From an uncultured Gammaproteobacteria bacterium (lineage in GTDB: Bacteria > Patescibacteriota > Patescibacteriia > UBA2591 > UBA6264): a stretch of 64,000 nt of DNA. Of this stretch, positions 31,491 through 48,289 are shown piece after piece. The notes under the pieces are model-generated. The model was not told where the DNA came from and made no database searches. It saw only the letters and a program-made list of their open reading frames with translations. The stretch is taken from the NCBI GenBank assembly GCA_964596735.1, contig CAZQVF010000001.1, forward strand, positions 74,135 through 138,134. The letters run 5' to 3'. The first letter of the stretch is position 1; each line of letters starts with the position of its first letter. The position numbers and the translations under genes are program-made.

Positions 31491-31491
31491 T

Positions 31492-32319: not shown

Positions 32320-32320
32320 G

Positions 32321-33169: not shown

Positions 33170-33170
33170 T

Positions 33171-34040: not shown

Positions 34041-34057
34041 TAAGATATTTTAATTAT

Positions 34058-34902: not shown

Positions 34903-34903
34903 T

Positions 34904-35749
34904 ATGGCTAAGAAAAAATTTAGTATAAAAATGAAACAGAGCTGGTTTCAAATTGCTGAGAAATGGAGAGAATATAATTATCCAGTTAAACCTTCTCCCA
35001 TGGAGACAAGATTTTTTGAAAAAGAAATAAAGGATTTATTAAAAAGGGAAAAGAGAATTAAAGCTTTAGTTTTAGGGGCAACCCCTGAATTTAGAGATTT
35101 ATTGGCTAAGCATAAAATAGACACTGTTTTAATTGATAATAATTTAACCTCTGTCAAGGCAATGACTTTTTTAATGAAAAGAAAGACTAAAAAAGAAAAA
35201 ATAGTGGTTGGGGATTGGTTAAAGATGCCTTTTAAAGAAAATACCTTTGATATAGTTTTCAGTGATTCTGCTCAGGACAATATTAAGTTTAAAAATTTCA
35301 ATAAGTTTTTTAATAATGTTTACCAAATTTTAAAGCCAGAGGGATATTGGTTTTTTGCTGCGGTTAATGTGGAAAAAAATCAAAGTATTTCTTTAAAAAA
35401 ATACATTAAAAAATACAAAGAAAAACCAAAGATTTTTAAAGATTTTAGAAATTTTGCTTCTTATTTTTTTCGAGTCGGTCGCGGTCCAGATTTTTATAAA
35501 CCCAAAACCAGAAGTTTTGATTTTGCTAAAATTGATCAAAGGGTAAAGGCCCTTATTGAGGAAGGTAAAATTTCTTCTAAAGCCCTTAAAGATATTTGTT
35601 TTCATTTAAATTATGAACAGGTTTTAATTGGTCAAACCGATTTTAAGAAAATGTTAAAAAAGAATTTTAATATTTTTAAAGAAATGAAAAAAGATAAACA
35701 TCCGGGCATGGAAATAAAGTGGGCGGCAATTTTAAAACCAAAGAAATAA
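34904..35749 (+). CDS. array paralog 6 (LGATPE MTase-like)
   Basis: ALVLGATPEFRDLLAKH, VLIDNNLTSVKAM, GDWLKMPFKENTFDIVFSDSAQDNI, ILKPEGYWFFA, ...AILKPKK. Confidence 0.85.
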   Translation: MAKKKFSIKMKQSWFQIAEKWREYNYPVKPSPMETRFFEKEIKDLLKREKRIKALVLGATPEFRDLLAKHKIDTVLIDNNLTSVKAMTFLMKRKTKKEKIVVGDWLKMPFKENTFDIVFSDSAQDNIKFKNFNKFFNNVYQILKPEGYWFFAAVNVEKNQSISLKKYIKKYKEKPKIFKDFRNFASYFFRVGRGPDFYKPKTRSFDFAKIDQRVKALIEEGKISSKALKDICFHLNYEQVLIGQTDFKKMLKKNFNIFKEMKKDKHPGMEIKWAAILKPKK

Positions 35750-35750
35750 T

Positions 35751-36638
35751 ATGGCCAAAAAGAAATTAGACAATCCTATTTGGGACGCAAAACAACAAAA
35801 ATGGTGGGAGTTTTTTTGGGGAGGAGTTAAAGCTCCTTGGCGACCGACAAAAAAGGAAATTAAATTTTGGGAAGGGAAAATTCAACAAGCTTTTAAAGAA
35901 AAAGATTTTTTACGTGTTTTAATTTTAGGGGCTACTCCAGAATTTAGAGACATGCTGACCAGGTATAAAGATAAAACAGAAGTGACCCTATTAGACGCAA
36001 ATCCGGCAGTTAAAGCAGCCATGGATAAGCTAAGGAAAAAGAGAAATTCTAAGGAAAGAATAGTTTGGGGTGATTGGCTAAAGATGCCCTTACCGTCTAA
36101 TTATTTTGACATTGTTTTTAGTGATGAAGTATTTGAGAATATTGCTTTGGAAAATCATGACAAGTTACATCAAAATATTAAACGGGTTTTGAAAAAAGAT
36201 GGTTATTTTTTAGATGGTCGGATTTGTTTAGAAGACTTTTTTAAACATCCCTTACATCTAGAACAAGTTTTAAGAAAATATAAAAGGGAGCCAAGGTTTT
36301 TCCACGATTCTTATAACCGGCTTTGGTATTTGTATCGTTTATGCCCTTCAGAAAAGCTCTTTTATAGTAAAAAAGAGCAAGCAGTTTTAATGAATAAAAA
36401 GGCAGCAGAAAAAGTATTTAATAGGGCTAAAAAAATAGGCATAAAAAACCCAAAATATTTAAATTGGGATCCAAGATTAGATTATAAGGAGCTTGATTAC
36501 AAGGAGATAGATTTAGCTAGTTTAAAAAGAGTAAAGTCAATGATTGGAAAATATTTTAAAATAGAAAAAACTTATCAGGATTTATTTCATCCAGTAATGA
36601 AAATAAAATATAATTTTGTCTGCCGTCCTAAAGAATAA
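35751..36638 (+). CDS. array paralog 7 (LGATPE MTase-like)
   Basis: VLILGATPEFRDMLTRY, TLLDANPAVKAAM, GDWLKMPLPSNYFDIVFSDEVFENI, VLKKDGYFLDG, ...FVCRPKE. Confidence 0.85.
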   Translation: MAKKKLDNPIWDAKQQKWWEFFWGGVKAPWRPTKKEIKFWEGKIQQAFKEKDFLRVLILGATPEFRDMLTRYKDKTEVTLLDANPAVKAAMDKLRKKRNSKERIVWGDWLKMPLPSNYFDIVFSDEVFENIALENHDKLHQNIKRVLKKDGYFLDGRICLEDFFKHPLHLEQVLRKYKREPRFFHDSYNRLWYLYRLCPSEKLFYSKKEQAVLMNKKAAEKVFNRAKKIGIKNPKYLNWDPRLDYKELDYKEIDLASLKRVKSMIGKYFKIEKTYQDLFHPVMKIKYNFVCRPKE

Positions 36639-36641
36639 AAT

Positions 36642-37499
36642 ATGGCAAAAAAAGGTTTAATTAATGGAAAAGAATGGGTGGATTATTTAAAATTTTGGTC
36701 GATTATGGCTCCGCCGGCCCGGCCCTCTAGTTTTGATATAAAGATTTGGGAGACATATATTAAAAAAATATTAAGACAAAAAAGAGATATTAAAGCTTTA
36801 GTTTTTGGCGCCACTCCTGAAATCCGCGATTTATTAGCTAAATATAAGATTTTCACTACTCTTTTAGATGTTAATCCAGCCATGATTAAAGGGTTGATGA
36901 AATTCATGAAGTATAAGAAGCAACGAAACGAGAAAGTAATTATTGATAATTGGCTAAAAATTAGAGAATTGTTTTCTGAAAATTCTTTTGATATAGTGAT
37001 GGGCCATGATTTTTTTAATAATATTCCTTGGAGTTCTCATAATAAATTAGCCAGCAGCATTAAATGGGTTTTAAAAAAAGATGGCTATGGATTAATTGTT
37101 TCTCCAATTTTAAGAAAAACAAAAAATTTGTCTAGCGAGCATTTTGTTACGCTATATAAAAAAAATCCAAAATACTTTAAAGAATTTTGTCATCGTTGGT
37201 ATGTAGTAGATGTTTTAAAAAAATTAGATTATAACAAAAGAACCAGACAGTTTTTTATAAAAAAAATAAAAGAACGTTTAATCAAAGAAGCAGAAAAACA
37301 AGGTTTGTCAGAAAAGGATATTAATCAGATGTGGGTTTTTAAAACATTTAATATAGCTGACAATTATATTGGAGTTCACCCGCCCTTAAAAGATTTATTA
37401 AATGTTTTTAAGAAATATTTTAAAATTGAGAAAATGTCTTATTGGTCAAAACAGGGGAACAAATCCCATTTTAATTTTGTTTTAAGACCTAAGAAATAA
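36642..37499 (+). CDS. array paralog 8 (LGATPE MTase-like)
   Basis: ALVFGATPEIRDLLAKY, TLLDVNPAMIKGLM, DNWLKIRELFSENSFDIVMGHDFFNNI, VLKKDGYGLIV, ...FVLRPKK. Confidence 0.85.
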   Translation: MAKKGLINGKEWVDYLKFWSIMAPPARPSSFDIKIWETYIKKILRQKRDIKALVFGATPEIRDLLAKYKIFTTLLDVNPAMIKGLMKFMKYKKQRNEKVIIDNWLKIRELFSENSFDIVMGHDFFNNIPWSSHNKLASSIKWVLKKDGYGLIVSPILRKTKNLSSEHFVTLYKKNPKYFKEFCHRWYVVDVLKKLDYNKRTRQFFIKKIKERLIKEAEKQGLSEKDINQMWVFKTFNIADNYIGVHPPLKDLLNVFKKYFKIEKMSYWSKQGNKSHFNFVLRPKK

Positions 37500-37502
37500 A
37501 AT

Positions 37503-38378
37503 ATGGCAAAACATAAGATAGACAATCCAGTTTGGCAAAAAAAAGAAGAATGGTGGTATAATGTTTGGAAAAAAGTTGAGCCACCATTTCATCCTTCAAA
37601 AGGGGAGGTGATGTTTTATGAAAAGGCAGTGAAAAAAACATTGAAACGAAAAAATCCAAAGGTTCTTGTTTTAGGAGCAACACCAGAAATCCGTGATATG
37701 TTAGCTAAATACAAAAAATTAGACGTTTATATTATAGACGCTGATGTTCCAGTTTATCGAGCCATGACCCGGTTAATGAAAAGAAAGAACAAACGAGAAA
37801 AATTAGTAGTTGGAGATTGGCTAAAAATGCCATTTAAAAAAGATACCTTTGATCTGAGTTTGAGCCACGGAGCTTTTTCTGTAATTAGTCTAAAAAATCA
37901 TGAAAGATTTTATAACAATATTAAAAGAGTAATTAAAAAAGATGGTTATATTGTAATGAGTCGGGTGAATGTCGAACCCTTTTTAAAAGAGCCAATTAGT
38001 TTTAAACAGATTATTGATAGATATAAAGAGGATCCAAAATATTTTAAAAGCCTTCAAAACAGAGTTTATATTTTATACCAATTGACCAGCCGACCAGGCT
38101 TATATAATTACAAAACCCAGAGCATTAAATATCATGTCATGGCTAGAAAATTAAGAGATTATGCTAGAAAACAAGGACTTTCAGAAAAGCAAATAAAAGG
38201 TCTGTATTTTACCCCAGATTTTGATGTGAATCTTAAAATTGATGACACAGAAATACAAACCCTTAAAAGACTAAAGACAATGATTAAAAAACATTTTATA
38301 ATTAAAGAAATATATCAGGATGATTATCACCCGGTGGCCAAAATATTTATTGATTTCTTATGTCAAAAAAGAAAATAG
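37503..38378 (+). CDS. array paralog 9 (LGATPE MTase-like); recent duplicate of paralog 10
   Basis: VLVLGATPEIRDMLAKY, YIIDADVPVYRAM, GDWLKMPFKKDTFDLSLSHGAFSVI, VIKKDGYIVMS, ...IFIDFLCQKRK; ends with the same ...FIDFLCQKRK tail as paralog 10. Confidence 0.85.
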   Translation: MAKHKIDNPVWQKKEEWWYNVWKKVEPPFHPSKGEVMFYEKAVKKTLKRKNPKVLVLGATPEIRDMLAKYKKLDVYIIDADVPVYRAMTRLMKRKNKREKLVVGDWLKMPFKKDTFDLSLSHGAFSVISLKNHERFYNNIKRVIKKDGYIVMSRVNVEPFLKEPISFKQIIDRYKEDPKYFKSLQNRVYILYQLTSRPGLYNYKTQSIKYHVMARKLRDYARKQGLSEKQIKGLYFTPDFDVNLKIDDTEIQTLKRLKTMIKKHFIIKEIYQDDYHPVAKIFIDFLCQKRK

Positions 38379-39238
38379 ACAACCCAATTTGGCAGAAAAA
38401 AGAAGAATGGTGGTATAATGTTTGGAAAAAAGTTGAACCGCCCTTTTGTCCTTCAAAGGGGCAGATTAAGTTTTATGAAAAGATAATAAAGAACAAAATA
38501 CTTAAACGTAAAAATCCCAGAATTCTTGTCTTAGGAGTCACACCGCAGATTCGTGATTTATTGGCTAAATACAAGAAACTAGATGTTTATTTAATTGATA
38601 TTGATGTGCCGGTTTATCGAGCGATGACTAGATTAGTGAAGAAAAAAAATCCTAGAGAAAAATTAATCGTCGGTGATTGGTTAAAAATGCCTTTTGAAAA
38701 AAATTATTTTGATTTAATCATGGCTCATAGTTCGTTTTCTGTCATTAGTTTAAAACACCATAAGTTGTTTTATCAGAATATTAAAAGGGTTCTTAAAAAA
38801 GATGGTTATGTTTTAATGAGTCGGGGAATATTGGAATTTGCTTTTAAAGACCCGATTAATTTTAAACAATTTTTTAATAAATACAAAAAAGACCCTAAAT
38901 ATTTTAAAAATTTTCAAAACAGAACATATATTTTATACCGATTAATCAATCGACCAGGAATCTATGACAGAAGGACACAGGGATTTAAATGGCATGTTAT
39001 GGCCAAAGGGTTGATGGATTATGGAAAAAGACAAGGATTTTCAGAAAAACAAATAAAAAGTCTTTATTTTCTTCCTGAGATAGGGCCAGAAGCAGTTTAT
39101 ACAGATACTGATATTGAAAGTGCAAAAAAAGTTAAATCAATGATTAGAAAACATTTTATAATCAAACAAATTCATCAGGATAATTATCACCCCATTGCTA
39201 AAATATTTATTGATTTTTTATGTCAAAAAAGAAAATAA
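38360..39238 (+). CDS. array paralog 10 (LGATPE MTase-like)
   Basis: About 70% identical by eye to paralog 9 along its whole length. The ATG start sits inside the last codons of paralog 9 (ATGTCAAAAAAGAAAATAG overlap). Confidence 0.85.
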   Translation: MSKKKIDNPIWQKKEEWWYNVWKKVEPPFCPSKGQIKFYEKIIKNKILKRKNPRILVLGVTPQIRDLLAKYKKLDVYLIDIDVPVYRAMTRLVKKKNPREKLIVGDWLKMPFEKNYFDLIMAHSSFSVISLKHHKLFYQNIKRVLKKDGYVLMSRGILEFAFKDPINFKQFFNKYKKDPKYFKNFQNRTYILYRLINRPGIYDRRTQGFKWHVMAKGLMDYGKRQGFSEKQIKSLYFLPEIGPEAVYTDTDIESAKKVKSMIRKHFIIKQIHQDNYHPIAKIFIDFLCQKRK

Positions 39239-40071
39239 GTGTAAAAGATTATGTTGAATTTTGGAAAAATCTTTATCCAGAGATAAAGCCGCTTCCTTCA
39301 ACAATTCAGTTTTGGGAAGATAAAATTAAAGAGATATTAAAGAAGAATAAGAATCCTCAGGCCTTGGTTTTAGGAGTGACCCCAGAAATCAGAGATTTAT
39401 TGACTAAGCATAAAATTAAGACAACCTGTTTAGACCTTAATCCAATAATGATTAAGGCAATGGAATCATTAGTTAAAAGGAAAAATCCTAAAGAAAGAAT
39501 TATTAAGGGTGATTGGCTAAAAATGCCATTTAAAAAAGATACTTTTGATTTTATTATCAGTGATTGCCCCCAAGATAATATTCCCTATAAGAGTTGGAAC
39601 AAATTTTTTCAAAGTGTTTTTCAGGTTTTAAAACCAAGCGGATATTGGTTATTAGGAGCAACTCTTTTTAAAGGTTTTAAAGAGGGAATTAATTTAAGTC
39701 AATTCATAGAAATTTATCGAAAAAATCCCAAGGTATTTACAAATTCGAAGCAAAAGTTTTATTATCTTCTTAAACTATCTAGTTGTCGTGATTTTAATAA
39801 TCGCAAGACCAAAACAGTTGATTGGATAAAGGTAGATAAAGAATTAGAAAAACTTTATAAAAAAGGATTAATCAACAGAAAAGAGTTAAATGATTTATCT
39901 ATATCTACAAAAAGTATTAAGTTAAGTTTGGCCTGTAAATGGCCCTGGGTTACCATGAATGAGTTTTGTAGAATTTTGAAAAAGAATCATTTTTATGTGA
40001 TAGGTTATAGAGAAGATGACATTTTTCCAGCTGGTTGTTTTCGCCAGGCTTTTATTTTAAAAAAACATTGA
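39220..40071 (+). CDS. array paralog 11 (LGATPE MTase-like)
   Basis: ALVLGVTPEIRDLLTKH, TCLDLNPIMIKAM, GDWLKMPFKKDTFDFIISDCPQDNI, VLKPSGYWLLGA; the start overlaps the paralog 10 stop with the same ATGTCAAAAAAGAAAATAAG junction. Confidence 0.85.
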   Translation: MSKKKISVKDYVEFWKNLYPEIKPLPSTIQFWEDKIKEILKKNKNPQALVLGVTPEIRDLLTKHKIKTTCLDLNPIMIKAMESLVKRKNPKERIIKGDWLKMPFKKDTFDFIISDCPQDNIPYKSWNKFFQSVFQVLKPSGYWLLGATLFKGFKEGINLSQFIEIYRKNPKVFTNSKQKFYYLLKLSSCRDFNNRKTKTVDWIKVDKELEKLYKKGLINRKELNDLSISTKSIKLSLACKWPWVTMNEFCRILKKNHFYVIGYREDDIFPAGCFRQAFILKKH

Positions 40072-40110
40072 AAATAAAGAAAAAGCCGTTTTGTAGCGGT
40101 TTGAAAATTT

Positions 40111-40965
40111 ATGACAAAAAAAATTAAAAAACAAAATAAAAAAACTTTTAATCCAGACTGGAAAAAATGGTCTGATTTTTGGAATAAAATTAAACCACCC
40201 TGGAAGCCTTCGGTTCAAGAAATAAGATTTATAAAATCAAGACTTAAAGTATTGGTTAAAAACAATCAACCACGAGCCCTGATTCAAGGCGCAACCCCAG
40301 ACTTTCGTGATTTATTAGCTGATTTAGGTTATCAGGTCTGGCTTTTAGACATAAACAAAGAAATGGTTGATGGTACGAGGCTGGTGATGAAGAATAAAAA
40401 TCCTAAAGAAAAAGTAAAGATTGGGAATTGGCTTGCCAAACCATTTAAAACAAACTATTTTGATGCTGTCTTAGCCGACGAAACTCTTGATAACTTAGCT
40501 TTAAAAACATATAACCAGTATTTTCAAAATATAAAAACGTTTCTTAAACCAGGTGGATATTTTATTTACGGGGCTTATTGCATGCCAGCCCGGACTCGCC
40601 AAATAAGTTTTGATGAGTTAGCTAAATTATATAATAAAGACCCGAAATTTTTTAAAAAATGGGAGAATAAATGTTATCTTTGGCACTGGGTGCAAGATAA
40701 ATCTAAAATCTTTGATCGTCGAAAATGGCAATATGATTTTACCTATTTTGATAACGAAATTCAAAAACTATATGATCAAGGGAAAATATCCAAGCAAGGC
40801 TTAAAAGATTTACAATATAAGATGGGGGCATATCAGAGTGTTCATCTATACCGCAAAGATTTAGAGATTCGACTTAAAAAGTATTTTAAAATTTTAAACA
40901 TTTGGGTTGTTCCAAAGATGAAGTATCATAATAAGATAGTTTACGTTTTAAAAGTTCAAAAATAA
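40111..40965 (+). CDS. array paralog 12 (LGATPE MTase-like)
   Basis: ALIQGATPDFRDLLADL, WLLDINKEMVDG, GNWLAKPFKTNYFDAVLADETLDNL, FLKPGGYFIYGA. Confidence 0.85.
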   Translation: MTKKIKKQNKKTFNPDWKKWSDFWNKIKPPWKPSVQEIRFIKSRLKVLVKNNQPRALIQGATPDFRDLLADLGYQVWLLDINKEMVDGTRLVMKNKNPKEKVKIGNWLAKPFKTNYFDAVLADETLDNLALKTYNQYFQNIKTFLKPGGYFIYGAYCMPARTRQISFDELAKLYNKDPKFFKKWENKCYLWHWVQDKSKIFDRRKWQYDFTYFDNEIQKLYDQGKISKQGLKDLQYKMGAYQSVHLYRKDLEIRLKKYFKILNIWVVPKMKYHNKIVYVLKVQK

Positions 40966-41019
40966 GAACCCTTCGCTACGCTCAGGAACCTTGAAATTAA
41001 AACTTTATTTTATAAATAT
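40964..41019 (+). promoter_or_regulatory. conserved CTTGAAATTAAA promoter-like element (internal to the array)
   Basis: AAGAACCCTTCGCTACGCTCAGGAACCTTGAAATTAAAACTTTATTTTATAAAT in the 74-nt gap between paralogs 12 and 13; same architecture as the copies at 1879, 4839 and 19449. Confidence 0.55.
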
Positions 41020-41039
41020 TAAGGTAGTTTAATTATAAT

Positions 41040-41891
41040 ATGACTAAAAAAGAATCAACTAGCAAAAAATTTATAGATCCCTGGAAAACAATGGCAAATA
41101 ATTGGAATCTATTTTGTTCTCCTGGTCGACCTTCATCAAGAAATATCTTAGATTATGAAAAACTTTTTCAATCTACAGTTAAAAAAAGAAAAAATCCCAA
41201 GATATTAATTTTAGGGGCAACGCCAGAACTGAGAGACCTTTTAAATAAATTTAAAAAAGCAGAAGTATGTATTTGTGATATTAATATAGAAATGATTTTA
41301 GCCATGACAGAATTGATGAAAAAGAAAAAAGCAGTGGAAAGGGAAATATGGATGAAAGCCAATTGGAAAGACATGCCTTTAAAGAAAGATTATTATGATG
41401 TTATCTTGGGCGATTACATTACCAGCGCTTTTCCCTTAAAAGATCACGCAGAATTATTTAATAAATTAAGATCAGTTTTAAATAAAAATGGTTGTTTTGT
41501 TAGCAGGATCTTTTTTTACAATCCAGATGCAGTAGAAGATTTTAATCAAGTAGCGGATAAATATTTAAACAAAAAAGTAACCCCTAGGACAATAACTGAT
41601 TTTTGGATGGAGGCATATTTCCGCGGTCCGTATAGAAAAGGGGGAGTTCTTTCAGGCAAGAGATTTAAAGAAAAAATGAATATTTACGTAAAAAAGAACC
41701 CCAAAATCAAGCCACTTTTCAATAAACTTGATCAAATATTATTGCCATATAATAAGGATTATAATTTTTGTAGCTTAAAACAAACTGAAAAATCATTAAA
41801 GAGATATTTTGTAATCAAAGAAAAATTACCAGAGATTAACACCACCTTAAGCAAAAATACATTTATATATAAATTATCTCCAAAGAAATAA
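41040..41891 (+). CDS. array paralog 13 (LGATPE MTase-like)
   Basis: ILILGATPELRDLLNKF, CICDINIEMILAM, ANWKDMPLKKDYYDVILGDYITSAF, hydrophobic core block after it. Confidence 0.85.
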   Translation: MTKKESTSKKFIDPWKTMANNWNLFCSPGRPSSRNILDYEKLFQSTVKKRKNPKILILGATPELRDLLNKFKKAEVCICDINIEMILAMTELMKKKKAVEREIWMKANWKDMPLKKDYYDVILGDYITSAFPLKDHAELFNKLRSVLNKNGCFVSRIFFYNPDAVEDFNQVADKYLNKKVTPRTITDFWMEAYFRGPYRKGGVLSGKRFKEKMNIYVKKNPKIKPLFNKLDQILLPYNKDYNFCSLKQTEKSLKRYFVIKEKLPEINTTLSKNTFIYKLSPKK

Positions 41892-41892
41892 T

Positions 41893-42744
41893 ATGACAAA
41901 ACAAATTCATGGCACAAAATATTGGACAGATTTAGCTCAATGGTGGCGAAAGGTTGCTCCACCGGTTAGACCATCAAAGTCGGATATTAAGATTTATGAG
42001 AGATTTTTAAAAAAGGTAATTAAGAACAAGAAACAACCCAAAATTTTAATTTTAGGAGCGACACCGGAAATGCGAGATTTAGCCGCTAAGTATAGAGCGG
42101 AAACAACTGTTTGTGATATTAGTTTGGAAATGATAATAGCTATGATTCAGTTGATGACTCATAAAAAGGCTGGCCAAAAAGAAGTTTGGGTTAAAGCAAG
42201 TTGGGTGACAGTACCATTGAAACATAATTATTACGATGTGATTTTAGCAGATGGGGTGATATGTAATATCCCCTGGTCAGAAGTAAATCAATGGTGGAAA
42301 CATTTAAATCAATTACTTAAACCAAAGGGTGTTTTTATCACCCGAGCCTTCTGTTTTACCTCTAGAAATGAGATTGATAAAAGTTTGAATAATCTTATTA
42401 AGAAGATTTTAAAAAAGAGAAATCCTTTAGCAACCGATTTTGGTCAATTGAAAATAACTTTAGAAATCGCAAGTTATAATTCTAAAACTAGAACGGGCAG
42501 TAATGCCAAGTATAGAGAATTATTTTTTAAACATATTGAGAATTTTTCAGTTTTTCAAACAAAGGCAAACAAGATTTATCGTCAACTTGTTAAGATTTAT
42601 CCACCTAAGCCAGTTAAAGTTTGGCGAATACCAACAAGAGCTCAGAGAGAAAAAGAAATTAAAAAGTATTTTAAGATTATTTTTGGTATTCCTTCTCCAT
42701 CTTTTCCAACTATACCGACAATTTATTTATTAAAGAAAAAATAA
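41893..42744 (+). CDS. array paralog 14 (LGATPE MTase-like)
   Basis: ILILGATPEMRDLAAKY, TVCDISLEMIIAM, ASWVTVPLKHNYYDVILADGVICNI, LLKPKGVFITRAF. Confidence 0.85.
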   Translation: MTKQIHGTKYWTDLAQWWRKVAPPVRPSKSDIKIYERFLKKVIKNKKQPKILILGATPEMRDLAAKYRAETTVCDISLEMIIAMIQLMTHKKAGQKEVWVKASWVTVPLKHNYYDVILADGVICNIPWSEVNQWWKHLNQLLKPKGVFITRAFCFTSRNEIDKSLNNLIKKILKKRNPLATDFGQLKITLEIASYNSKTRTGSNAKYRELFFKHIENFSVFQTKANKIYRQLVKIYPPKPVKVWRIPTRAQREKEIKKYFKIIFGIPSPSFPTIPTIYLLKKK

Positions 42745-42745
42745 C

Positions 42746-43621
42746 ATGCCTAAGAAAAAACAAGAAAAAAGATTTATTGCCCCCTGGAAAGCCTATGCTG
42801 CTCGTTGGCAAAAATACTGTACTCCACCAGGCCGGCCATCTAAACAAGCCATGGCCATGTATCGCAAATTTGCCAAACAATCTTTTTCTAATTTAAAACG
42901 CAAACCACGAACCTTGGTTTTAGGAGCGACTCCAGAGGCAAGAGATGTTTTAGTTGGGCTTAAAGCAGAGGTCAGTATTATTGATTTTAATATGGAAATG
43001 ATTTTAGCCATGACAGAATTGGTTAAAAAGAAAAATCCCAATGAGATTATAGTTAAAGCAAATTGGCTTAATATGCCCTTCCCCCCTAATTATTATGACG
43101 CTGTGTTAGGGGATCTTGTTTTATGCAATGTGCCCGGACCATTACAAGCCAGGTTTTTAAAAGAAGTCAAAAGAGTTTTAAAACCGAAAGGATATTTTAT
43201 CACTAAAATGCATGTTATTCCTAACGATTGGCAGTTTAAACCCATTGATTGGGTTTTGGATAAATATGCTAAAATCCCTGTTTGTAAAAATACAGCTATT
43301 GAACTATTTGGGTTTCTTCATAACACCATTTATCAGCCAAAAACCCATATAATGGATATTAGCCTAATTAGAAAAGGATTAACAAAGTATTGGAAAAAAG
43401 GAAAGTATAAACATCCTAGTGCCAAGATTAGTAAATTACTTAATCATATTTGGGAGATGTTTAAGCCCATGGACAAAACATGGTGTACAGGCTATGAAAA
43501 AGAAATTAGCAAACAGGTTTCCCAATATTTTAAAATCCGAAAGAAAATAGTTTTAAACGATTGTTATTTCCGTGAGATTGATGAATCATTTCCTTTTTGG
43601 GTTTGCCAAGTAAAAAAATAA
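42746..43621 (+). CDS. array paralog 15 (LGATPE MTase-like)
   Basis: TLVLGATPEARDVLVGL, SIIDFNMEMILAM, ANWLNMPFPPNYYDAVLGDLVLCNV, VLKPKGYFITK. Confidence 0.85.
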   Translation: MPKKKQEKRFIAPWKAYAARWQKYCTPPGRPSKQAMAMYRKFAKQSFSNLKRKPRTLVLGATPEARDVLVGLKAEVSIIDFNMEMILAMTELVKKKNPNEIIVKANWLNMPFPPNYYDAVLGDLVLCNVPGPLQARFLKEVKRVLKPKGYFITKMHVIPNDWQFKPIDWVLDKYAKIPVCKNTAIELFGFLHNTIYQPKTHIMDISLIRKGLTKYWKKGKYKHPSAKISKLLNHIWEMFKPMDKTWCTGYEKEISKQVSQYFKIRKKIVLNDCYFREIDESFPFWVCQVKK

Positions 43622-43622
43622 T

Positions 43623-44465
43623 ATGTTAAAACCCCATGAGCTAAATAGATCTTATTGGATGCGAAGTGCTGAGATTTGGCGCAAGTTAAAGCCGCCAGAA
43701 AGGCCCAGTAAAGAGGAAATGGGGATTTATGAAAAACACCTTAAAGAAATATTGCAGTTTAAAGGTAATAAATTAAGAGCTGTTATTCTTGGAGCTACTC
43801 CAGAAATTCGAGATTTATTAGCCAGATATAAAGTTTCAGACGTTACTATTGTTGATGTTAATCCTAATATGGTTCGGGCGATGAAAGAATTACTTAAAAT
43901 CTCAAAGGGCAGAGAGAAAATAGTCATTGCTAGTTGGTTAAATACGGGGTTGCCGTCTCATAAATATGATGTGGTTTTCTGTGATCACGGTACAGCCCAC
44001 ATCAAGTTTCTTCAGTGGCCTAAATTTTTTAAGGAACAAAAAAGATTTTTAAAAAAGAATGGCTTTGTTTTACATAATATCGTTACTCGGCCATTTAAGG
44101 AGGGCATCACGGTAAGTGATTTAGTTAAAATTTATAAGAAAAATAAATTAAAATTTTCTCGTCTTGATAAATTTTATTATAATTATTTAGTTTTTCTAAA
44201 ATTGAAAGATGTGAATGGAAAACACCACAAAGATTTAGGAGTTCTTGATAAAAATTTAAAAAGTTTTATCAATAAAAAGGTGATTGATAAAAATGATTAT
44301 CAAAAATTAAAGACTCCATGGGAAGATGCAAAAATTGCTCTTCCTCCGCAGGAGGTTGTTGATGAGATTTTTCAGAAATTTTTTAATTTAAAAACATTAG
44401 AACATGGATCAAAACACCCGATTTATAGTTGTCATCAAATATACTTTGGTCAAGTAAAAAAATAA
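43623..44465 (+). CDS. array paralog 16 (LGATPE MTase-like)
   Basis: AVILGATPEIRDLLARY, TIVDVNPNMVRAM, ASWLNTGLPSHKYDVVFCDHGTAHI, FLKKNGFVLHN. Confidence 0.85.
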   Translation: MLKPHELNRSYWMRSAEIWRKLKPPERPSKEEMGIYEKHLKEILQFKGNKLRAVILGATPEIRDLLARYKVSDVTIVDVNPNMVRAMKELLKISKGREKIVIASWLNTGLPSHKYDVVFCDHGTAHIKFLQWPKFFKEQKRFLKKNGFVLHNIVTRPFKEGITVSDLVKIYKKNKLKFSRLDKFYYNYLVFLKLKDVNGKHHKDLGVLDKNLKSFINKKVIDKNDYQKLKTPWEDAKIALPPQEVVDEIFQKFFNLKTLEHGSKHPIYSCHQIYFGQVKK

Positions 44466-44470
44466 AGTCT

Positions 44471-44764
44471 ATGAAAATTAAAATACCACCTGTTTCCATT
44501 GACACTGACAAACTAATTAAGCGCTGTGGTTATGCTGAGTTAAGAAGAAAAACAGGGGAGATAAGTTATGTTCGTCGTTTACGTGGTTATCAATACCCAC
44601 GCTTTCATGTTTATATTGAAAATGGATATTTTAATCTTCACTTAGATCAAAAGGCCCCTTGTTATCAAGGGTCTTCAGCTCACGCCGGAGAATATGAGGG
44701 AGAAATTTTAGTAAAAGAAAAAGAAAGAATAAAAGAGATCATTAATAAGTATAGAAATGAATAA
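44471..44764 (+). CDS. hypothetical 97-aa protein, unrelated insert within the array
   Basis: MKIKIPPVSIDTDKLIKRCGYAEL...RFHVYIENGYFNLHLDQKAPCYQGSSAHAGEYEG; none of the paralog blocks are present. The track calls it from 44429, overlapping the upstream gene; the ATG at 44471 was preferred. Confidence 0.4.
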   Translation: MKIKIPPVSIDTDKLIKRCGYAELRRKTGEISYVRRLRGYQYPRFHVYIENGYFNLHLDQKAPCYQGSSAHAGEYEGEILVKEKERIKEIINKYRNE

Positions 44765-46427
44765 AAAAGGTTGGACAAAAAGATGGAAAAATGTTTCTGA
44801 ATGGTGGGGAAAGTTAAATTCACCCTGGACCCCTTCTTTGGGAGAGTATAAAATCTATGAAAAGTTTTTGAAAAAGACAACAAATTTTAAAGATAAAGAT
44901 AGAAAAATGCTAATTTTAGGAGCGACGGCATTGTTAAGAGAGCTGGGGTATAAGTATGGCTATCAAATCACCTTGATTGATATAAATCAAGAAATGGTTA
45001 AAGATCAAACTAGATTTTTAGGCCTTAAAATTCCTAAAGAAAAAGTGGTTATTGGTGACTGGTTAGAAATGGATAAAATTTTTAAAAACCAACAATTTGA
45101 CGTTATCGCAGCAGATCATTCAGTTATTAATGTTAAATTTAAAAATTGGCCCAAACTTTATAAAAATATACAAAATCTTTTAAAACCTGATGGTTCGGTT
45201 CTTTGGGCAACAACTGTTTATAATCATCGAAAGCATGGTCAAGTAAAAGACTTGGTAAAAAGTTATCGGCCCAATAAATCAGAAAAAGACAGATTTATTA
45301 GAATTTATAAATTATTTGGTAATCCAAAATTTCATGATAAAAACCATGGTTTTCATTTTGGCCAAGCTGACAAGGAAATAGGAAAATTAGCCAAGAAAAA
45401 AAGTTTTTCCAAAGAGCAAATCAATGAAATGAAGTTGAATTTAGGAAACTGGACTTCAGTAATATTACAAAAAAAGAAATTTGAAGATTTTACAAAAAAA
45501 TATTTTAAAATAATTGATAATCAGAAAGATAAAAGTCATCATTTCTATAAATATCAGCAACTTTATCTTTTAAAGCACAAAAAATCACCTAAGAGAAGTG
45601 TTTCATGGAAAACTATTGCCGAAGTCTGGCCTGATTTAAAGCCGCCTTTAAGACCCTCAAAAGGAGAAATGAGGATTTATGAGAGATATTTAAAACAGAT
45701 TATTAAACAAAAGAAAGGTAAACTAACCGCCTTATTATTTGGTTTAACCACAGAAATCAGGGATATGTTGGCAAAATATGGGGTATTTGTCACCATGATT
45801 GATGTTAATCCGGAAATGGTTAAAGTGACAGAATCTTTATGTCAACAGAAAAACAGAAAAGAAAAAGTGGTTATTGATGACTGGTTAAAGTTTAATCTTA
45901 ATAAAAAGTTTGACATTATTTTGGGAGACCATGTTTTTGGTAATGTAGAGTTTAAAAAACAGCAGAGGCTTTGGAGGCAAATCAAAAAACATTTGAAATC
46001 CGACGGGTATTTGATTACAGACGTTCATTTAAGAGCTTTAAACAAGAAAATAGGTTTAAAGCAGTTTATTGAAAAATATAGAAGAAGTAAAATATTAAAA
46101 AAGAACCGAGAAGAAAAATGGTATTGGCTTTATTCTTTGGTTTATAACAATCCTGTTTTCTTTAAAAGGAAAATTAAATCAGTTTTATGGCCCTCAGTTG
46201 AAGAATTATTAAGGCAAACCAAGAAAAGAAATATTGATTTAAGTATGGCAGAAGCAAGAGAGATTGCTGATGACGTTCACATAGACAGGCCTTGTTGGTT
46301 TATGCTTCCGATGAAAAAGGAATTTGAAAAAGAATTAAAAAAATATTTTACAATGATTGATTCAGATATTAATAGAAAACACTCGGTTTATCGCTGTTAT
46401 CGCATTTATTTTGCTAAGTCAAAATAA
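44757..46427 (+). CDS. array paralogs 17+18 fused into one 556-aa two-domain protein
   Basis: Both halves carry the full block set. N-half: WKNVSEWWGKLNSPWTPSLGEYKIYEKF...MLILGATALLRELGYKY..TLIDINQEMVKD..GDWLEMDKIFKNQQFDVIAADHSVINV..LLKPDGSVLWA. C-half: WKTIAEVWPDLKPPLRPSKGEMRIYERY..ALLFGLTTEIRDMLAKY..TMIDVNPEMVKV..DDWLKFNLNKKFDIILGDHVFGNV..HLKSDGYLITD. Confidence 0.85.
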   Translation: MNKKGWTKRWKNVSEWWGKLNSPWTPSLGEYKIYEKFLKKTTNFKDKDRKMLILGATALLRELGYKYGYQITLIDINQEMVKDQTRFLGLKIPKEKVVIGDWLEMDKIFKNQQFDVIAADHSVINVKFKNWPKLYKNIQNLLKPDGSVLWATTVYNHRKHGQVKDLVKSYRPNKSEKDRFIRIYKLFGNPKFHDKNHGFHFGQADKEIGKLAKKKSFSKEQINEMKLNLGNWTSVILQKKKFEDFTKKYFKIIDNQKDKSHHFYKYQQLYLLKHKKSPKRSVSWKTIAEVWPDLKPPLRPSKGEMRIYERYLKQIIKQKKGKLTALLFGLTTEIRDMLAKYGVFVTMIDVNPEMVKVTESLCQQKNRKEKVVIDDWLKFNLNKKFDIILGDHVFGNVEFKKQQRLWRQIKKHLKSDGYLITDVHLRALNKKIGLKQFIEKYRRSKILKKNREEKWYWLYSLVYNNPVFFKRKIKSVLWPSVEELLRQTKKRNIDLSMAEAREIADDVHIDRPCWFMLPMKKEFEKELKKYFTMIDSDINRKHSVYRCYRIYFAKSK

Positions 46428-46432
46428 ATATC

Positions 46433-46461
46433 TCGACAAATATCTTATTTTTACATATAAT
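46433..46461 (+). promoter_or_regulatory. sigma70-type promoter (TCGACA-N17-TATAAT)
   Basis: TCGACA, a 17-nt spacer, then TATAAT in the 66-nt gap before the Nif3-like gene. Confidence 0.5.
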
Positions 46462-46493
46462 TAAGAACAAGATTTATTTTTAACTATATATTT

Positions 46494-47444
46494 ATGACTA
46501 TTGAACAAATTTACAATTTAGCCATTAAAATGGGCATGAAAAGCGATTTAAGAGGGGAGAGACAGGTAAAAAAAATGTTAACCCATTTAAAGAAAAGGTA
46601 TGAAAAAATGCCAGGAAAACAAAAGAAAGAATTTGACAAAGAAAAATTAACAAATCCATATTCTGATACCCGCATATTAAACAAAACAAAAAAACCAATT
46701 AAAAAGATTTTAACTGGTATTGATATGGAAGTAAGTGAACTACTTTTAGCCGAACAATTAGGTGGTGTTGACTTGATTTTAGCTCACCACCCCAGAGGCA
46801 TAGGATTAACCGGATTAGATGATGTGATGAAACTTCAGGCAGATGTTTTAAATCTTTATGGTGTGCCAATTAATATTGCTGAAAGTCTGGTTCGTTTAAG
46901 AAGAGGAGAGGTTAGTCGTTCAATTTCTTCGGCTAATCATAACCGAGTCGTTGATGCAGCTAAACTATTAAAAACAGGATATATGTGCATGCATACCCCA
47001 GCTGATAATTGTGTGGCTAGTTTTTTAAACAAATTGATTAAAAAGAAAAAACCAGAATATGTAGAAGATCTATTAGATCTATTAAAAACCATTCCTGAAT
47101 ATCAACAAGCCATGAAAATAGGAGCTGGACCAAGACTTTTTGCTGGTAAAGAAATAAATCACTGCGGCAAAATTGCTTTAACAGAAATCACTGGCGGAAC
47201 AGAGGGGTCTTCAAAGGTTTATGAAAAAATGAGTCAGGCAGGAATAGGCACAGTAGTGGCCATGCACATGAGTGAAAAAAATCGCAAAGAAGCAGAAAAA
47301 GCCCACATCAATGTCGTTATTGCCGGTCATATTGCTTCAGACTCCATTGGCATGAACCTAATATTAGATGAATTAGCCAAGAAAAAAATAGAAATCATCC
47401 CATGTTCTGGATTAATTAGAGTGGAGAGGTTTAAGAAAAGATAA
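46494..47444 (+). CDS. NIF3/YqfO-family (GTP cyclohydrolase 1 type 2-like) dinuclear-metal protein
   Basis: KKILTGIDMEVSELLLAEQLGGVDLILAHHPRG resembles the NIF3 N-terminal block ending in HHP; distal GHIASDS histidine block; the stop is 2 nt before the next paralog's ATG. Confidence 0.5.
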   Translation: MTIEQIYNLAIKMGMKSDLRGERQVKKMLTHLKKRYEKMPGKQKKEFDKEKLTNPYSDTRILNKTKKPIKKILTGIDMEVSELLLAEQLGGVDLILAHHPRGIGLTGLDDVMKLQADVLNLYGVPINIAESLVRLRRGEVSRSISSANHNRVVDAAKLLKTGYMCMHTPADNCVASFLNKLIKKKKPEYVEDLLDLLKTIPEYQQAMKIGAGPRLFAGKEINHCGKIALTEITGGTEGSSKVYEKMSQAGIGTVVAMHMSEKNRKEAEKAHINVVIAGHIASDSIGMNLILDELAKKKIEIIPCSGLIRVERFKKR

Positions 47445-47446
47445 AT

Positions 47447-48289
47447 ATGTCAGTACAACAGAATAAAAAAGACATGTGGTTTGAAAGTATTGCCCAGCAA
47501 TGGTCTATTTATGCGCCACCAGTCACTCCTTCTAAGTCAGAATGCCAGATTATTAAAAAGTGTATTCTTAATAAAAAAAGGAAAAATCTTCGGATATTAG
47601 TTTTAGGGGCAACGCCAGAATTTCGTGATTTAGCCCATGAACTAAAAGCAGAAGTTACTTGTGTAGACGTTTCTGTGTCAATGCTTCAGGGGTTGGTTCA
47701 TTTAATGAAACAAAAAAATAAAGCTGATCAGGAGATATGGTTTAAAGCCGATTGGCTAACCGTTCCCTTGGCAGAGAATTATTTTGATTTTGTTTTGGGT
47801 GATTTTGTTATTGTTAATTTGCCGATTAATCTGCAGCCAAAGTTTTTTTCAAAGATTAAGCATATTTTGAGGAAGAATGGGTTTTTTATCACTCGTCACC
47901 TTTTACCATTGGACTCATTTGAGCCTTTTCCTGAGCTTATTGGCCAAGCATTAAAGAATAAGAGTTTTAACAAGAGAATGATAAACAGTTTTTCATTAGA
48001 TGTTTTGCAGTCTGTTTATGAAAAAAGAACAAAGGTGATGAAAGTAAAAAAGGTTTATTCTGAGTTTAAAAAACTTATAATTCAGGAAAAAAATAAACAG
48101 AGAAGAAAAAGGATTAAAGATTTGTTTGAAATTTATCAAGAATATTATCCTCTTGGTAAAGCTTGGTGGGGCTTATTAAAAAATCCAGGAGAAAGAGTAA
48201 TGAAGAAATATTTTAAAATTCAAGATATTAGATATGGACAGGACCATGACCGTGTGGATTATTGTCCAATTTATTTTTTAAGAAAATAA
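47447..48289 (+). CDS. array paralog 19 (LGATPE MTase-like)
   Basis: ILVLGATPEFRDLAHEL, TCVDVSVSMLQGL, ADWLTVPLAENYFDFVLGDFVIVNL, ILRKNGFFITR, ...IYFLRK. Confidence 0.85.
   Translation: MSVQQNKKDMWFESIAQQWSIYAPPVTPSKSECQIIKKCILNKKRKNLRILVLGATPEFRDLAHELKAEVTCVDVSVSMLQGLVHLMKQKNKADQEIWFKADWLTVPLAENYFDFVLGDFVIVNLPINLQPKFFSKIKHILRKNGFFITRHLLPLDSFEPFPELIGQALKNKSFNKRMINSFSLDVLQSVYEKRTKVMKVKKVYSEFKKLIIQEKNKQRRKRIKDLFEIYQEYYPLGKAWWGLLKNPGERVMKKYFKIQDIRYGQDHDRVDYCPIYFLRK

What the first reader, a model, noticed from the sequence alone, without database searches (positions are those of the whole stretch)
44757..46427. Two paralog units fused into a single 556-aa protein
Both halves independently carry the full N-terminal W..W..RPS..GE..IYE signature, an LGAT/LGLT block, post-I, motif II-like and motif III-like blocks. 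A tandem fusion suggests the family may act as dimers or heteromers and documents ongoing rearrangement in the array. An unrelated 97-aa ORF (44471-44764) is wedged immediately upstream.
Basis: seen in the sequence. Interest (0 to 1): 0.5.

Follow-up and report, generated by a model that had tools for sequence, protein, structure and literature searches.

The report
Real fusion of two methyltransferase paralogs
A 556-residue protein in an uncultured CPR (Patescibacteria) bacterium is a genuine fusion of two old, different SAM-methyltransferase paralogs, at a variable position in a 19-unit gene array; the fusion is an ordinary kind of event, and the enzyme family's function is still unknown.

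Summary
ORF 44757-46427 (+) encodes 556 aa made of two complete units of one class I SAM-methyltransferase family (283 and 300 bits to the family profile). The units are 32% identical and joined by about 9 residues.

It is not a sequencing artefact. The identical protein is called on at least 5 independently assembled contigs. No in-frame start codon lies between the junction and the conserved N-terminal motif. Normal junctions in the array (TAA-n-ATG) put neighbouring genes in different frames.

It is not a recent duplication. Each half belongs to its own subfamily, and each exists as a stand-alone gene in relatives: N-type in L044, L043, L021 and P0034; C-type in L011, L012, L015 and L018. 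Two sister strains carry in-frame deletions of the N unit with different breakpoints.

Both halves keep nearly all family-invariant residues and are under purifying selection (omega 0.12 and 0.22).

An obligate N-C heteromer is not supported, because the two types occur independently of each other.

The family is specific to CPR and DPANN, forms arrays, usually lies next to a Cys/Met-type PLP enzyme, and has no known substrate.

The parts
44757..46427 (+). Fused gene: 556-aa protein with two class I SAM-methyltransferase domains
   Evidence: Single ORF. Two Pfam methyltransferase domains. Two full-length matches to the family profile. Identical protein on at least 5 independent contigs.
44757..45578 (+). 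N unit (residues 1-274), N-type subfamily with motif I variant LGATALLRELG
   Evidence: 282.7 bits to the family profile. Stand-alone orthologs: L044 4001-4834 (66.5% aa), P0034 (62%), L021 6305-7147 (54%). dN/dS 0.12 against L044. AF2 Rossmann core pLDDT about 90.
45579..45605 (+). Junction/linker HKKSPKRSV (residues 275-283): former N stop and C start
   Evidence: Stand-alone N in L044 ends ...KHKCK* and in L021 ...LLGQK*, within about 2 codons of this point. Residues RSVSWK resemble the leaders of stand-alone C-type genes (x-K-Y-S-W-K). No in-frame ATG/GTG/TTG before the GEM codon. pLDDT below 50 at 279-281.
45606..46427 (+). C unit (residues 284-556 plus stop), C-type subfamily with motif I variant FGLTTEIRDML
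   Evidence: 299.8 bits to the family profile. Orthologs: L010/P0008 91%, P0361 91%, L011/P0157 59%, L012/P0162 56%, L015/P0156 50%, L018 50%. dN/dS 0.22 against L010. AF2 pLDDT about 96.
44783..44790 (+). ATGGAAAA, 5' copy of the 8-nt direct repeat at the breakpoint of the L010 N-deletion allele
   Evidence: L010 follows the window to ...AGATGGAAAA and then continues with 45613 onward. The window has 822 extra nt, in frame.
45605..45612 (+). ATGGAAAA, 3' copy of the same repeat
44786..44797 (+). GAAAAATGTTTC, imperfect repeat (partner GAGAAGTGTTTC at 45593-45604) at the breakpoint of the second N-deletion allele (P0361; L040-L042)
   Evidence: The BLAST blocks of L040 overlap at exactly these coordinates. 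The protein reads MNKKGWTKRW|RSVSWK.
44471..44764 (+). Conserved 97-aa CPR protein of unknown function; its stop overlaps the fused gene's start by 8 nt
   Evidence: 132 homologous clusters across Patescibacteria, none with a Pfam domain. Present at the same position in L010, L011, L012, L021, L043 and L044. In distant CPR it sits next to L9 or a tRNA synthetase. dN/dS 0.07-0.14.
30591..48289 (+). Context: array of 19 methyltransferase units (17 separate ORFs, one of them frameshifted, plus the two-unit fused gene), interrupted only by the 97-aa ORF and NIF3
29023..30471 (+). Context: Cys/Met-metabolism-type PLP enzyme just upstream of the array
   Evidence: Pfam PF01053. SGTK lysine motif read. 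A homolog lies beside the array in 10 of 18 distinct loci, including DPANN archaea.
46433..46461 (+). Best sigma70-like site in the region (TCGACA-17-TATAAT), just after the fused gene's stop and before NIF3
   Evidence: A consensus match only.

Best explanation
The 556-aa protein is a real gene fusion of two neighbouring members of a CPR/DPANN-specific family of class I SAM-dependent methyltransferases. The two members diverged long ago. Genes in this array are packed as TAA-n-ATG, or overlap. At the position between the conserved 97-aa gene and NIF3, the stop codon of an N-type gene and the start codon of a C-type gene were lost. The codon at the old stop position is now TCA, and no start codon remains. 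The ribosome therefore reads through both units, giving a two-domain enzyme with a flexible linker of about 9 residues. Each domain is a complete methyltransferase that most likely binds SAM and works on its own (inferred). The fusion mainly guarantees 1:1 co-expression and is probably close to neutral (inferred). This position is a recombination hot spot. Close relatives carry N only, C only, or N-leader/C-body chimeras made by in-frame deletion between short repeats in the two leaders. The N unit is an older allele than its flanks. The substrate is unknown. The fold and the recurrent neighbours point to small-molecule methylation.
For: Real and not an artefact: identical protein and junction on at least 5 independent contigs at 99.9% nt identity (JGI 3300009374, 3300009320, 3300009326, 3300009314; ENA ERZ23499079). 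One contig has a synonymous SNP inside the gene. A 556-aa variant with one amino-acid change is also on record. There is no in-frame start between the junction and the W..W..PS motif. Most array junctions have a 1-nt spacer, so neighbours lie in different frames and one base error cannot fuse them.

Two distinct subfamilies: the halves are 32% identical. FUS_C has orthologs at 91, 59, 56 and 50%. FUS_N has stand-alone orthologs at 66.5, 62 and 54%, and all of them keep the unusual GATALLRELG motif.

The junction lies where N normally stops: L044 N ends KHKCK* and L021 N ends LLGQK*.

Hot spot: the states of this position are listed. There are two N-deletion alleles with different breakpoints, at ATGGAAAA and at GAxAAxTGTTTC. 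The chimeras share Gly5 of the window's N leader, not Asp5 of L044. N has dS 1.54 against 0.35-0.50 for the flanking genes, with the same omega.

Fusions recur in this family with different partners: P0003, P0013, the six-unit P0002, and P0011 fused to a riboflavin kinase domain. P0003 shows the simplest route, TAA to TCA in an in-frame junction.
Against: No raw reads, transcripts or peptides were examined, so expression of a 64-kDa product is inferred. No genome was found with N and C adjacent but unfused, so the ancestral state (two genes, against insertion of one cassette beside the other) is inferred. Both halves have lost the Pro of the GATPE motif, which is 96% conserved in the family (Ala in N, Thr in C). 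The N-type lacks it even when it stands alone. The effect on SAM binding is unknown. The relative orientation of the domains could not be assessed: no PAE or coordinates were returned, pTM is 0.64, and only 3-4 rows of the alignment cover the N half.
Confidence: 0.8

Rival explanations
1. Sequencing or assembly artefact: a false read-through between two separate genes, or a chimeric contig joining an N-only strain to a C-only strain.
For: Contigs of sister strains break close to this position (L040-L042 start 50-160 nt upstream of the gene). The position is polymorphic among strains.
Against: The same junction occurs in at least 5 independent assemblies from different samples and pipelines. 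The junction bases TCACCTAAG are found in no N-only or C-only allele. There is no in-frame start for a separate C gene. The window's N allele (79% nt to the N of L044) is seen only in the fused form. The N-leader/C-body chimeras carry the window-type leader, as expected if they derive from a fused or adjacent N-C state.
Confidence: 0.03
2. Functionally coupled bifunctional enzyme: the two domains carry out successive methylations of one substrate, as MT1/MT2 do in plant phosphoethanolamine N-methyltransferase or the fused glycine/dimethylglycine methyltransferases, and the fusion was selected for channelling.
For: The top Foldseek matches are the two-domain AtPMT1/2 and nematode PMTs, aligned across both domains (E down to 6.6e-15). 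The PDB profile search also hits PMTs. Both domains look active. GMT/DMT genes are fused in some lineages and separate in others (PMC7824335). Plant PEAMTs have MT1 and MT2 domains (PMC8353235). FUS_N, FUS_C and M16 share a 'DH' signature after motif II and are each other's nearest relatives.
Confidence: 0.12
3. Pseudo-dimer with one degenerate, regulatory or scaffolding domain, as in RlmG/RsmC or the nematode PMTs that have a vestigial domain.
For: Both halves depart from the family's GATPE motif. RlmG and RsmC appear among the Foldseek hits. The lid of the N half (residues 157-235) is poorly predicted.
Against: Both halves keep the post-I Asp and the other family-invariant residues. The N-type motif variant is conserved in stand-alone N genes. 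Omega is 0.12 and 0.22. The low confidence of the N lid is explained by the alignment having only about 3 rows there.
Confidence: 0.05
4. Recent internal tandem duplication of a single gene.
For: The two units lie head to tail in one ORF, and the extra segment relative to L010 is exactly 822 nt, one unit, in frame.
Against: The halves are only 32% identical and each has its own orthologs. The window and L010 are 91-94% identical in the C unit, far too close for the N unit to have arisen and diverged since they split.
Confidence: 0.01

Closest known systems
Plant phosphoethanolamine N-methyltransferases (AtPMT1/2; PDB 5wp4, 5wp5) and nematode PMT-1/PMT-2 (4krg, 4krh, 4ine)
   Same: One polypeptide with two tandem class I SAM-methyltransferase domains. 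These are the best Foldseek matches and align across both domains. The PDB profile search also hits them. Plant PEAMTs use MT1 and MT2 for successive methylations (PMC8353235).
   Different: Only 10-12% identity. The two-domain superposition is poor (TM 0.25-0.32, rmsd about 20 A). There is no evidence for a phosphobase substrate. Here the two domains also exist, and are lost, independently in close relatives.
Fused glycine / dimethylglycine N-methyltransferase genes (GMT-DMT) of Actinopolyspora halophila and some Rhodospirillaceae and Rhodobacteraceae
   Different: There the two enzymes always co-occur and act in one pathway. Here N-type and C-type do not co-occur outside the fusion. The neighbour here is a Cys/Met-type PLP enzyme, not MAT or SAHase.
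Generic Methyltransf_11/25 small-molecule methyltransferases (PH0226 1ve3, NodS 3ofj, CmoA-like 8k5l, TmtA 5egp, DhpI 3ou2)
   Different: Family-specific N-terminal W..W..P..PS motif and LGATPEIRD in place of the canonical GxGxG loop. About 100 residues of helical lid that match no characterised enzyme. Organised in arrays restricted to CPR and DPANN.

Membership tests
Class I (Rossmann-fold) SAM-dependent methyltransferases (Pfam Methyltransf_11 / Methyltransf_25) | Domain model matched above the curated threshold, in each half separately | tested here: met
   N half: 34.1 bits (PF08241) and 33.5 bits (PF13649). C half: 32.3 and 31.4 bits. Cut-offs are 21.2 and 27.
Class I (Rossmann-fold) SAM-dependent methyltransferases (Pfam Methyltransf_11 / Methyltransf_25) | Alternating beta/alpha Rossmann-like fold | tested here: met
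Class I (Rossmann-fold) SAM-dependent methyltransferases (Pfam Methyltransf_11 / Methyltransf_25) | Acidic residue at the end of strand 2 (post-I; binds the ribose hydroxyls of SAM) | tested here: met
   D75 in N and D349 in C. This column is 97% Asp in 149 family members.
Class I (Rossmann-fold) SAM-dependent methyltransferases (Pfam Methyltransf_11 / Methyltransf_25) | Canonical glycine-rich motif I (E/DxGxGxG) | tested here: not met
   The family consensus is L-x-L-G-A-T-P-E-I-R-D. N has LGATALLRE and C has FGLTTEIRD. Only the first Gly is kept. This is a variant shared by the whole family, not a defect of this protein.
CPR/DPANN 'W..W..PS / LGATPE' methyltransferase family (defined here by profile A1; no curated model exists) | Full-length match to the family profile and retention of family-invariant residues | tested here: met
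   282.7 and 299.8 bits, end to end. All columns that are at least 90% conserved are kept in both halves, except the Pro of GATPE.
Two-domain phosphoethanolamine N-methyltransferases (plant PEAMT, nematode PMT) | Two tandem methyltransferase domains in one chain | tested here: met
Two-domain phosphoethanolamine N-methyltransferases (plant PEAMT, nematode PMT) | Specific sequence and structure relationship, including the domain arrangement | tested here: not met
   10-12% identity, TM 0.25-0.32, rmsd 19-22 A over both domains. Sequence E-values of 1e-9 to 1e-10 are for the generic methyltransferase core only.
Two-domain phosphoethanolamine N-methyltransferases (plant PEAMT, nematode PMT) | Methylation of phosphoethanolamine or other phosphobases | not testable with these tools
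   Needs an enzyme assay.
Corrinoid protein-associated methyltransferase CpaM (NCBIfam NF043040) | Score above the curated cut-off | tested here: not met
   45.7 bits for the whole protein against a cut-off of 180.
RlmG/RsmC-type tandem methyltransferases with an inactive N-terminal copy | One domain lacks the SAM-binding residues | tested here: not met
   Both halves keep the conserved SAM-site residues and both are under purifying selection.
MADS defence system methyltransferase mad2 (PADLOC PDLC04134) | Full-length match plus the other system genes nearby | tested here: not met
   Only profile positions 309-440 of 492 match, which is the methyltransferase core. No neighbour hits PADLOC.

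The most novel reading that the evidence does not exclude
The fused protein is one visible piece of an undescribed metabolic module shared by CPR bacteria and DPANN archaea. The module is an array of up to 19 anciently diverged small-molecule methyltransferases, almost always placed next to a Cys/Met-type PLP enzyme and often next to PEP-utilizer-type phosphotransferases. Its unit content is reshuffled between strains by cassette-like recombination. On this reading the array would be a variable toolkit for modifying metabolites taken from the host, and fusions such as N-C, or the six-unit P0002, would mark units that work together.
Probability: 0.15. Interest if true: 0.65.

Novelty: new member of a known kind. 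Interest (0 to 1): 0.38.

Why it matters
Taken alone, the fusion is an ordinary event: two adjacent paralogous enzymes joined by loss of a stop and a start codon, as already known for PEAMT and GMT-DMT.

Its value is as a well-documented natural series. The same position carries N only, C only, N-leader/C-body chimeras and the N-C fusion in close relatives, with mapped breakpoints and selection estimates. This shows how tightly packed CPR gene arrays change by small in-frame events.

The broader lead is the family itself. It has hundreds of clusters, is restricted to CPR and DPANN, forms arrays that take up about 17.7 kb of the window, is linked to a PLP enzyme, has no curated model, and did not turn up in the literature searches run here. 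Finding its substrates would explain a notable investment by organisms with very small genomes.

Tried and rejected
1. The word-indexed homolog search with the 556-aa protein returned only the query itself, probably because Lys-rich words saturated the candidate list. The exhaustive profile search and an alignment query replaced it.
2. AF2 on the single sequence failed (pLDDT 35).
3. I tried to give the N half more alignment depth with in-frame read-through of neighbouring window genes. MAFFT places all single units on the C half, so the N half of the final model rests on about 3 rows.
4. The genome-contig scan with FUS_N found nothing. Alignment A1 was too diverse to derive search patterns.
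5. The AFDB fold library was unavailable, so I could not look for other two-domain proteins with the same packing.
6. Literature searches for this family or for methyltransferase arrays in CPR/DPANN found nothing relevant.
7. A defence-system role was rejected: only a partial generic mad2 match.
8. The idea that the 97-aa ORF is a dedicated partner of the methyltransferases was rejected: in distant CPR it lies in unrelated contexts.
9. The idea that the high divergence of N reflects decay after fusion was rejected: omega is 0.12, the same as the flanks, and it is dS that is 3 times higher.
10. No SAM-cycle genes are present among the window ORFs that were scanned.
Full report
THE OBSERVATION

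Window 44757..46427 (+) is one ATG-to-TAA ORF of 556 aa. It lies in a head-to-tail array of methyltransferase genes running from 30591 to 48289. The array has 17 separate ORFs of about 275-299 aa plus this double-length gene, which makes 19 units. One of the 17, M05, is frameshifted.

Pfam finds two Methyltransf_11/25 domains, and each half passes the gathering threshold when scanned alone. A profile of the 18 intact units matches residues 1-276 (282.7 bits) and 276-556 (299.8 bits), each end to end.

The two halves are 32% identical, the same order as other pairs in the array (18-42%, except M09/M10 at 67%).

IS IT AN ARTEFACT?

The exact 556-aa protein is called on at least 5 independently assembled contigs from different samples: four JGI metagenomes and one ENA assembly. 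These contigs are 99.9% identical to the window and have the same junction. One of them carries a synonymous SNP inside the gene. A 556-aa variant with one amino-acid change is on record on a further JGI contig.

Between the end of unit 1 and the conserved W..W..P..PS motif of unit 2 there is no in-frame ATG, GTG or TTG. Unit 2 therefore could not be translated as a complete protein on its own.

Most junctions in the array read AAA-TAA-n-ATG with a 1-nt spacer, so neighbouring genes are in different frames. A single base error cannot produce this fusion.

The junction bases (AAA AAA TCA CCT AAG AGA) occur in none of the N-only or C-only alleles found later, which also rules out a chimeric assembly of two strains.

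WHAT THE TWO HALVES ARE

An exhaustive profile search found 4866 family members at E <= 1e-3. Of these, 573 clusters (50% identity) have E <= 1e-30, and nearly all are single units of 270-300 aa. Named members come from Patescibacteria/CPR. A scan of GTDB species genomes added Doudna-, Magasanik-, Buchanan- and Parcubacteria and several Woesearchaeota (DPANN).

Each unit in the window has its own closest relatives in other genomes, so the array is a set of old subfamilies and not a recent expansion.

The C half has clear orthologs: P0008/L010 at 91%, P0361 at 91%, P0157/L011 at 59%, P0162/L012 at 56%, P0156/L015 at 50%, and L018 at 50%. All of these are single-unit genes.

The N half has stand-alone orthologs too: L044 4001-4834 (66.5%), L043, P0034 (62%), and L021 6305-7147, which is the same gene as in L045 (54%). 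They all share the unusual motif I GATALLRELG, so that motif characterises the N-type and is not a sign of decay.

Stand-alone N ends ...YFLKHKCK* in L044 and ...YLLGQK* in L021. The fused N reads ...YLLKHKK-SPKRSVSWK..., and the part after the old stop resembles the leaders of stand-alone C-type genes (x-K-Y-S-W-K). The fusion point is therefore the former stop/start boundary. The codon at the old stop position is TCA, and no start codon remains.

A VARIABLE POSITION

Relatives share the same gene order: rpoA-L17-L13-def-ABC ... PLP enzyme - methyltransferase array - 97-aa gene - [unit] - NIF3 - (rSAM) ... GroES/EL. The number of units is 19 in the window, 10 in L021, 7 in L011 and 5 in L012. 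L044 is 87-90% identical to the window at the DNA level in the flanks, yet it lacks M14, M16, the C unit and M17.

The position between the 97-aa gene and NIF3 holds:
- N only, in L043, L044, L021 and L045;
- C only, in L011-L014;
- the N-C fusion, in the window;
- in two sister strains, a single unit made of the N leader joined to the C body.

The two chimeras are:
- L010/P0008 reads MNKKGWTKRWK|TIAEVW. At the DNA level it equals the window minus 822 nt (274 codons) between two copies of ATGGAAAA at 44783-44790 and 45605-45612.
- P0361 (L040-L042) reads MNKKGWTKRW|RSVSWK. Its breakpoint lies in the imperfect repeat GAAAAATGTTTC / GAGAAGTGTTTC at 44786-44797 and 45593-45604.

The leader ..W[ST]KRWK.VS is typical of N-type genes, and the chimeras share Gly5 with the window's N rather than Asp5 of L044. 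They are therefore deletion derivatives of a window-like N-C state.

P0008, P0361 and FUS_C are about 91% identical in every pairing. Two different breakpoints in roughly equidistant lineages suggest that the N unit was lost twice. One allele arising from the other by a 15-nt slippage is not excluded.

SELECTION

- C unit, window against L010: dN/dS = 0.22.
- N unit, window against L044: dN 0.189, dS 1.54, omega 0.12.
- Flanking genes M12, M13, the 97-aa gene, NIF3 and rSAM: dS 0.35-0.50, omega 0.07-0.14.
- M15: dS 0.84.

N is therefore as constrained as its neighbours, but its divergence is about three times deeper. The array is a mosaic in which units have been exchanged between lineages.

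In a 149-sequence family alignment, both halves keep all columns that are at least 90% conserved: the two Trp, P..P, L, G, T, R, the post-I Asp, E, W, D, D, L, G and F. The one exception is the Pro of GATPE, which is Ala in N and Thr in C.

STRUCTURE

Folding the single sequence with AF2 failed. With a 149-row alignment the model reached pLDDT 84.1 and pTM 0.64. The C half is about 96, the Rossmann core of the N half about 90, and the N lid (157-235) and the linker (279-281) are low. The N half was covered by only about 3 alignment rows.

CONTEXT AND FUNCTION

No curated family fits. All NCBIfam hits are far below their cut-offs. PADLOC gives only a partial methyltransferase-core match.

Across 18 distinct loci, the most frequent neighbour is a Cys/Met-metabolism-type PLP enzyme, present in 10 loci including two Woesearchaeota. 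Next come proteins with a swivelling-His PEP-utilizer domain, stand-alone PPDK_N, a DUF900-like hydrolase and a hexapeptide transferase.

The fold, the absence of nucleic-acid-binding domains among the Pfam hits to these proteins, and these neighbours point to small-molecule methylation. This is an inference. The PLP enzyme may deal with homocysteine or methionine produced by the SAM cycle, by analogy with betaine clusters that carry SAM-cycle genes (PMC7824335). That is speculation.

The 97-aa gene is a conserved CPR protein (132 clusters, no Pfam domain). In distant lineages it lies in unrelated contexts. It is a neighbour and not a partner of the methyltransferases.

HOW IT MOST LIKELY WORKS

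Shown:
- The fusion is real and joins two complete units from different subfamilies.
- Both units are conserved and under purifying selection.
- Each unit also exists as a stand-alone gene.
- This position in the array is highly variable between relatives.

Inferred:
- The product is a two-domain enzyme whose domains act independently on a short flexible tether.
- The fusion arose by loss of the TAA-n-ATG boundary. P0003 in another genome shows the one-base version, TAA to TCA.
- The fusion is near neutral, and its main effect is equimolar co-expression.

The fact that N and C never co-occur outside the fusion argues against an obligate heteromer or a fixed two-step pathway. Those rivals keep a combined probability of about 0.17. 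Fusion has happened repeatedly in the family with different partners: P0003, P0013, the six-unit P0002, and P0011 fused to a riboflavin kinase domain. That fits tight gene packing better than a specific functional need.

VERDICT

The finding is real and now largely explained. It is a new example of a known kind of event, a two-domain methyltransferase made by fusion of neighbouring paralogs. The more interesting lead is the uncharacterised CPR/DPANN methyltransferase array with its PLP neighbour.

Noticed in passing
window 34058-34902: Unit M05 is frameshifted. It starts at ATG 34058 (MVITKKRKNVQAWSKQMAQNRKK...) and stops early. The +2 frame continues after an A7 run at about 34121-34127 with RRPPTAPS...LILGVTPELR and the rest of a normal unit. 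It could be a pseudogene, a homopolymer sequencing error or programmed slippage. No other contig covers it.
   Followed up: partly
window 29023-30471; L008, L011, L012, L015, L018, L020, L024, L026, L030: A divergent Cys/Met-metabolism-type PLP enzyme lies next to the methyltransferase array in 10 of 18 distinct loci, spanning CPR bacteria and Woesearchaeota. In the window copy, the Lys motif SGTK is present and the Pfam match covers only part of the protein. This is the strongest conserved gene link for the family.
   Followed up: partly
L007 1125-6239 (ENA ERZ27256924): P0002 is a 1704-aa protein made of six family units in one chain. Its contig also encodes form II/III-type RuBisCO, an IF-2B-family protein, a glycosyl transferase family 3 protein of the thymidine/AMP phosphorylase type, and a signal peptide peptidase, which suggests a DPANN- or CPR-type organism.
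   Followed up: partly
P0011 (394 aa): A family unit fused at its C-terminus to a riboflavin kinase domain (Pfam Flavokinase, E 3.9e-26). This is another read-through fusion with a downstream gene, or possibly a hint about the substrate.
   Followed up: partly
window 54238-55476 (inside PPDK gene 52948-56625): The pyruvate phosphate dikinase carries an intein with a LAGLIDADG homing endonuclease. The 1239-nt insert is absent from the PPDK of sister strain L040 (811 aa against 1225 aa).
   Followed up: partly
window 1895, 4862, 19475, 28302(-), 40987, 52920(-): The motif AACCTTGAAATTAAA recurs in intergenic regions: 9 matches with up to 2 mismatches, against 2.0 expected. It looks like this organism's promoter (-35-like TTGAAA). 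One copy lies inside the array, before M13, so the array is probably more than one transcription unit.
   Followed up: partly
L040 70-147 and 2041-2110: In the sister strain, a 78-nt element containing the palindrome CCTGCCTGCCGGCAGGCAGG and the promoter-like motif sits between the 97-aa gene and the methyltransferase, and it changes the C-terminus of the 97-aa protein. A related element of about 65 nt takes the place of unit M17 between NIF3 and rSAM.
   Followed up: partly
window 37503-39238: M09 and M10 are 67% identical (76% at the DNA level) and are the only recent duplicates in the array. M10 and M11 each start 19 nt before the stop codon of the preceding gene.
   Followed up: no
window 44471-44764: The 97-aa ORF belongs to a well-conserved CPR-wide family of about 95-125 aa (132 clusters, 40-93% identity) with no Pfam, NCBIfam or PHROG model. 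It contains a conserved YPRFH.Y...G.F.LHLD motif. Its function is unknown.
   Followed up: partly
L011 11924-15313; L012 11989-13509: In relatives, NIF3 is followed by a radical SAM enzyme (fused to DsbD_2 in L011) and a Memo-AMMECR1 fusion protein, which are the parts of the AmmeMemoRadiSam system. The window has the radical SAM gene (48291-49208) but no Memo/AMMECR1 gene beside it.
   Followed up: no
L006, L008, L026, L030, L032; L015, L018: Proteins of about 480-515 aa with a C-terminal PEP-utilizer swivelling domain (three in tandem in L008), and stand-alone PPDK_N proteins, recur next to methyltransferase arrays in distant lineages. This suggests a split phosphotransferase acting in the same pathway.
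   Followed up: partly
L021 (CAZAGY010000004.1), L025 (CAZHNI010000002.1): These GTDB genome contigs are titled 'uncultured Gammaproteobacteria bacterium'. L021 carries the CPR-type array, the 97-aa gene, NIF3 and rSAM at 71-74% identity to the window. The taxon label is probably a binning or naming error.
   Followed up: no
window 6817-11430: A 1537-aa ORF with no Pfam match at E <= 1e-5, lying between the FtsA/FtsZ genes and gyrB.
   Followed up: no
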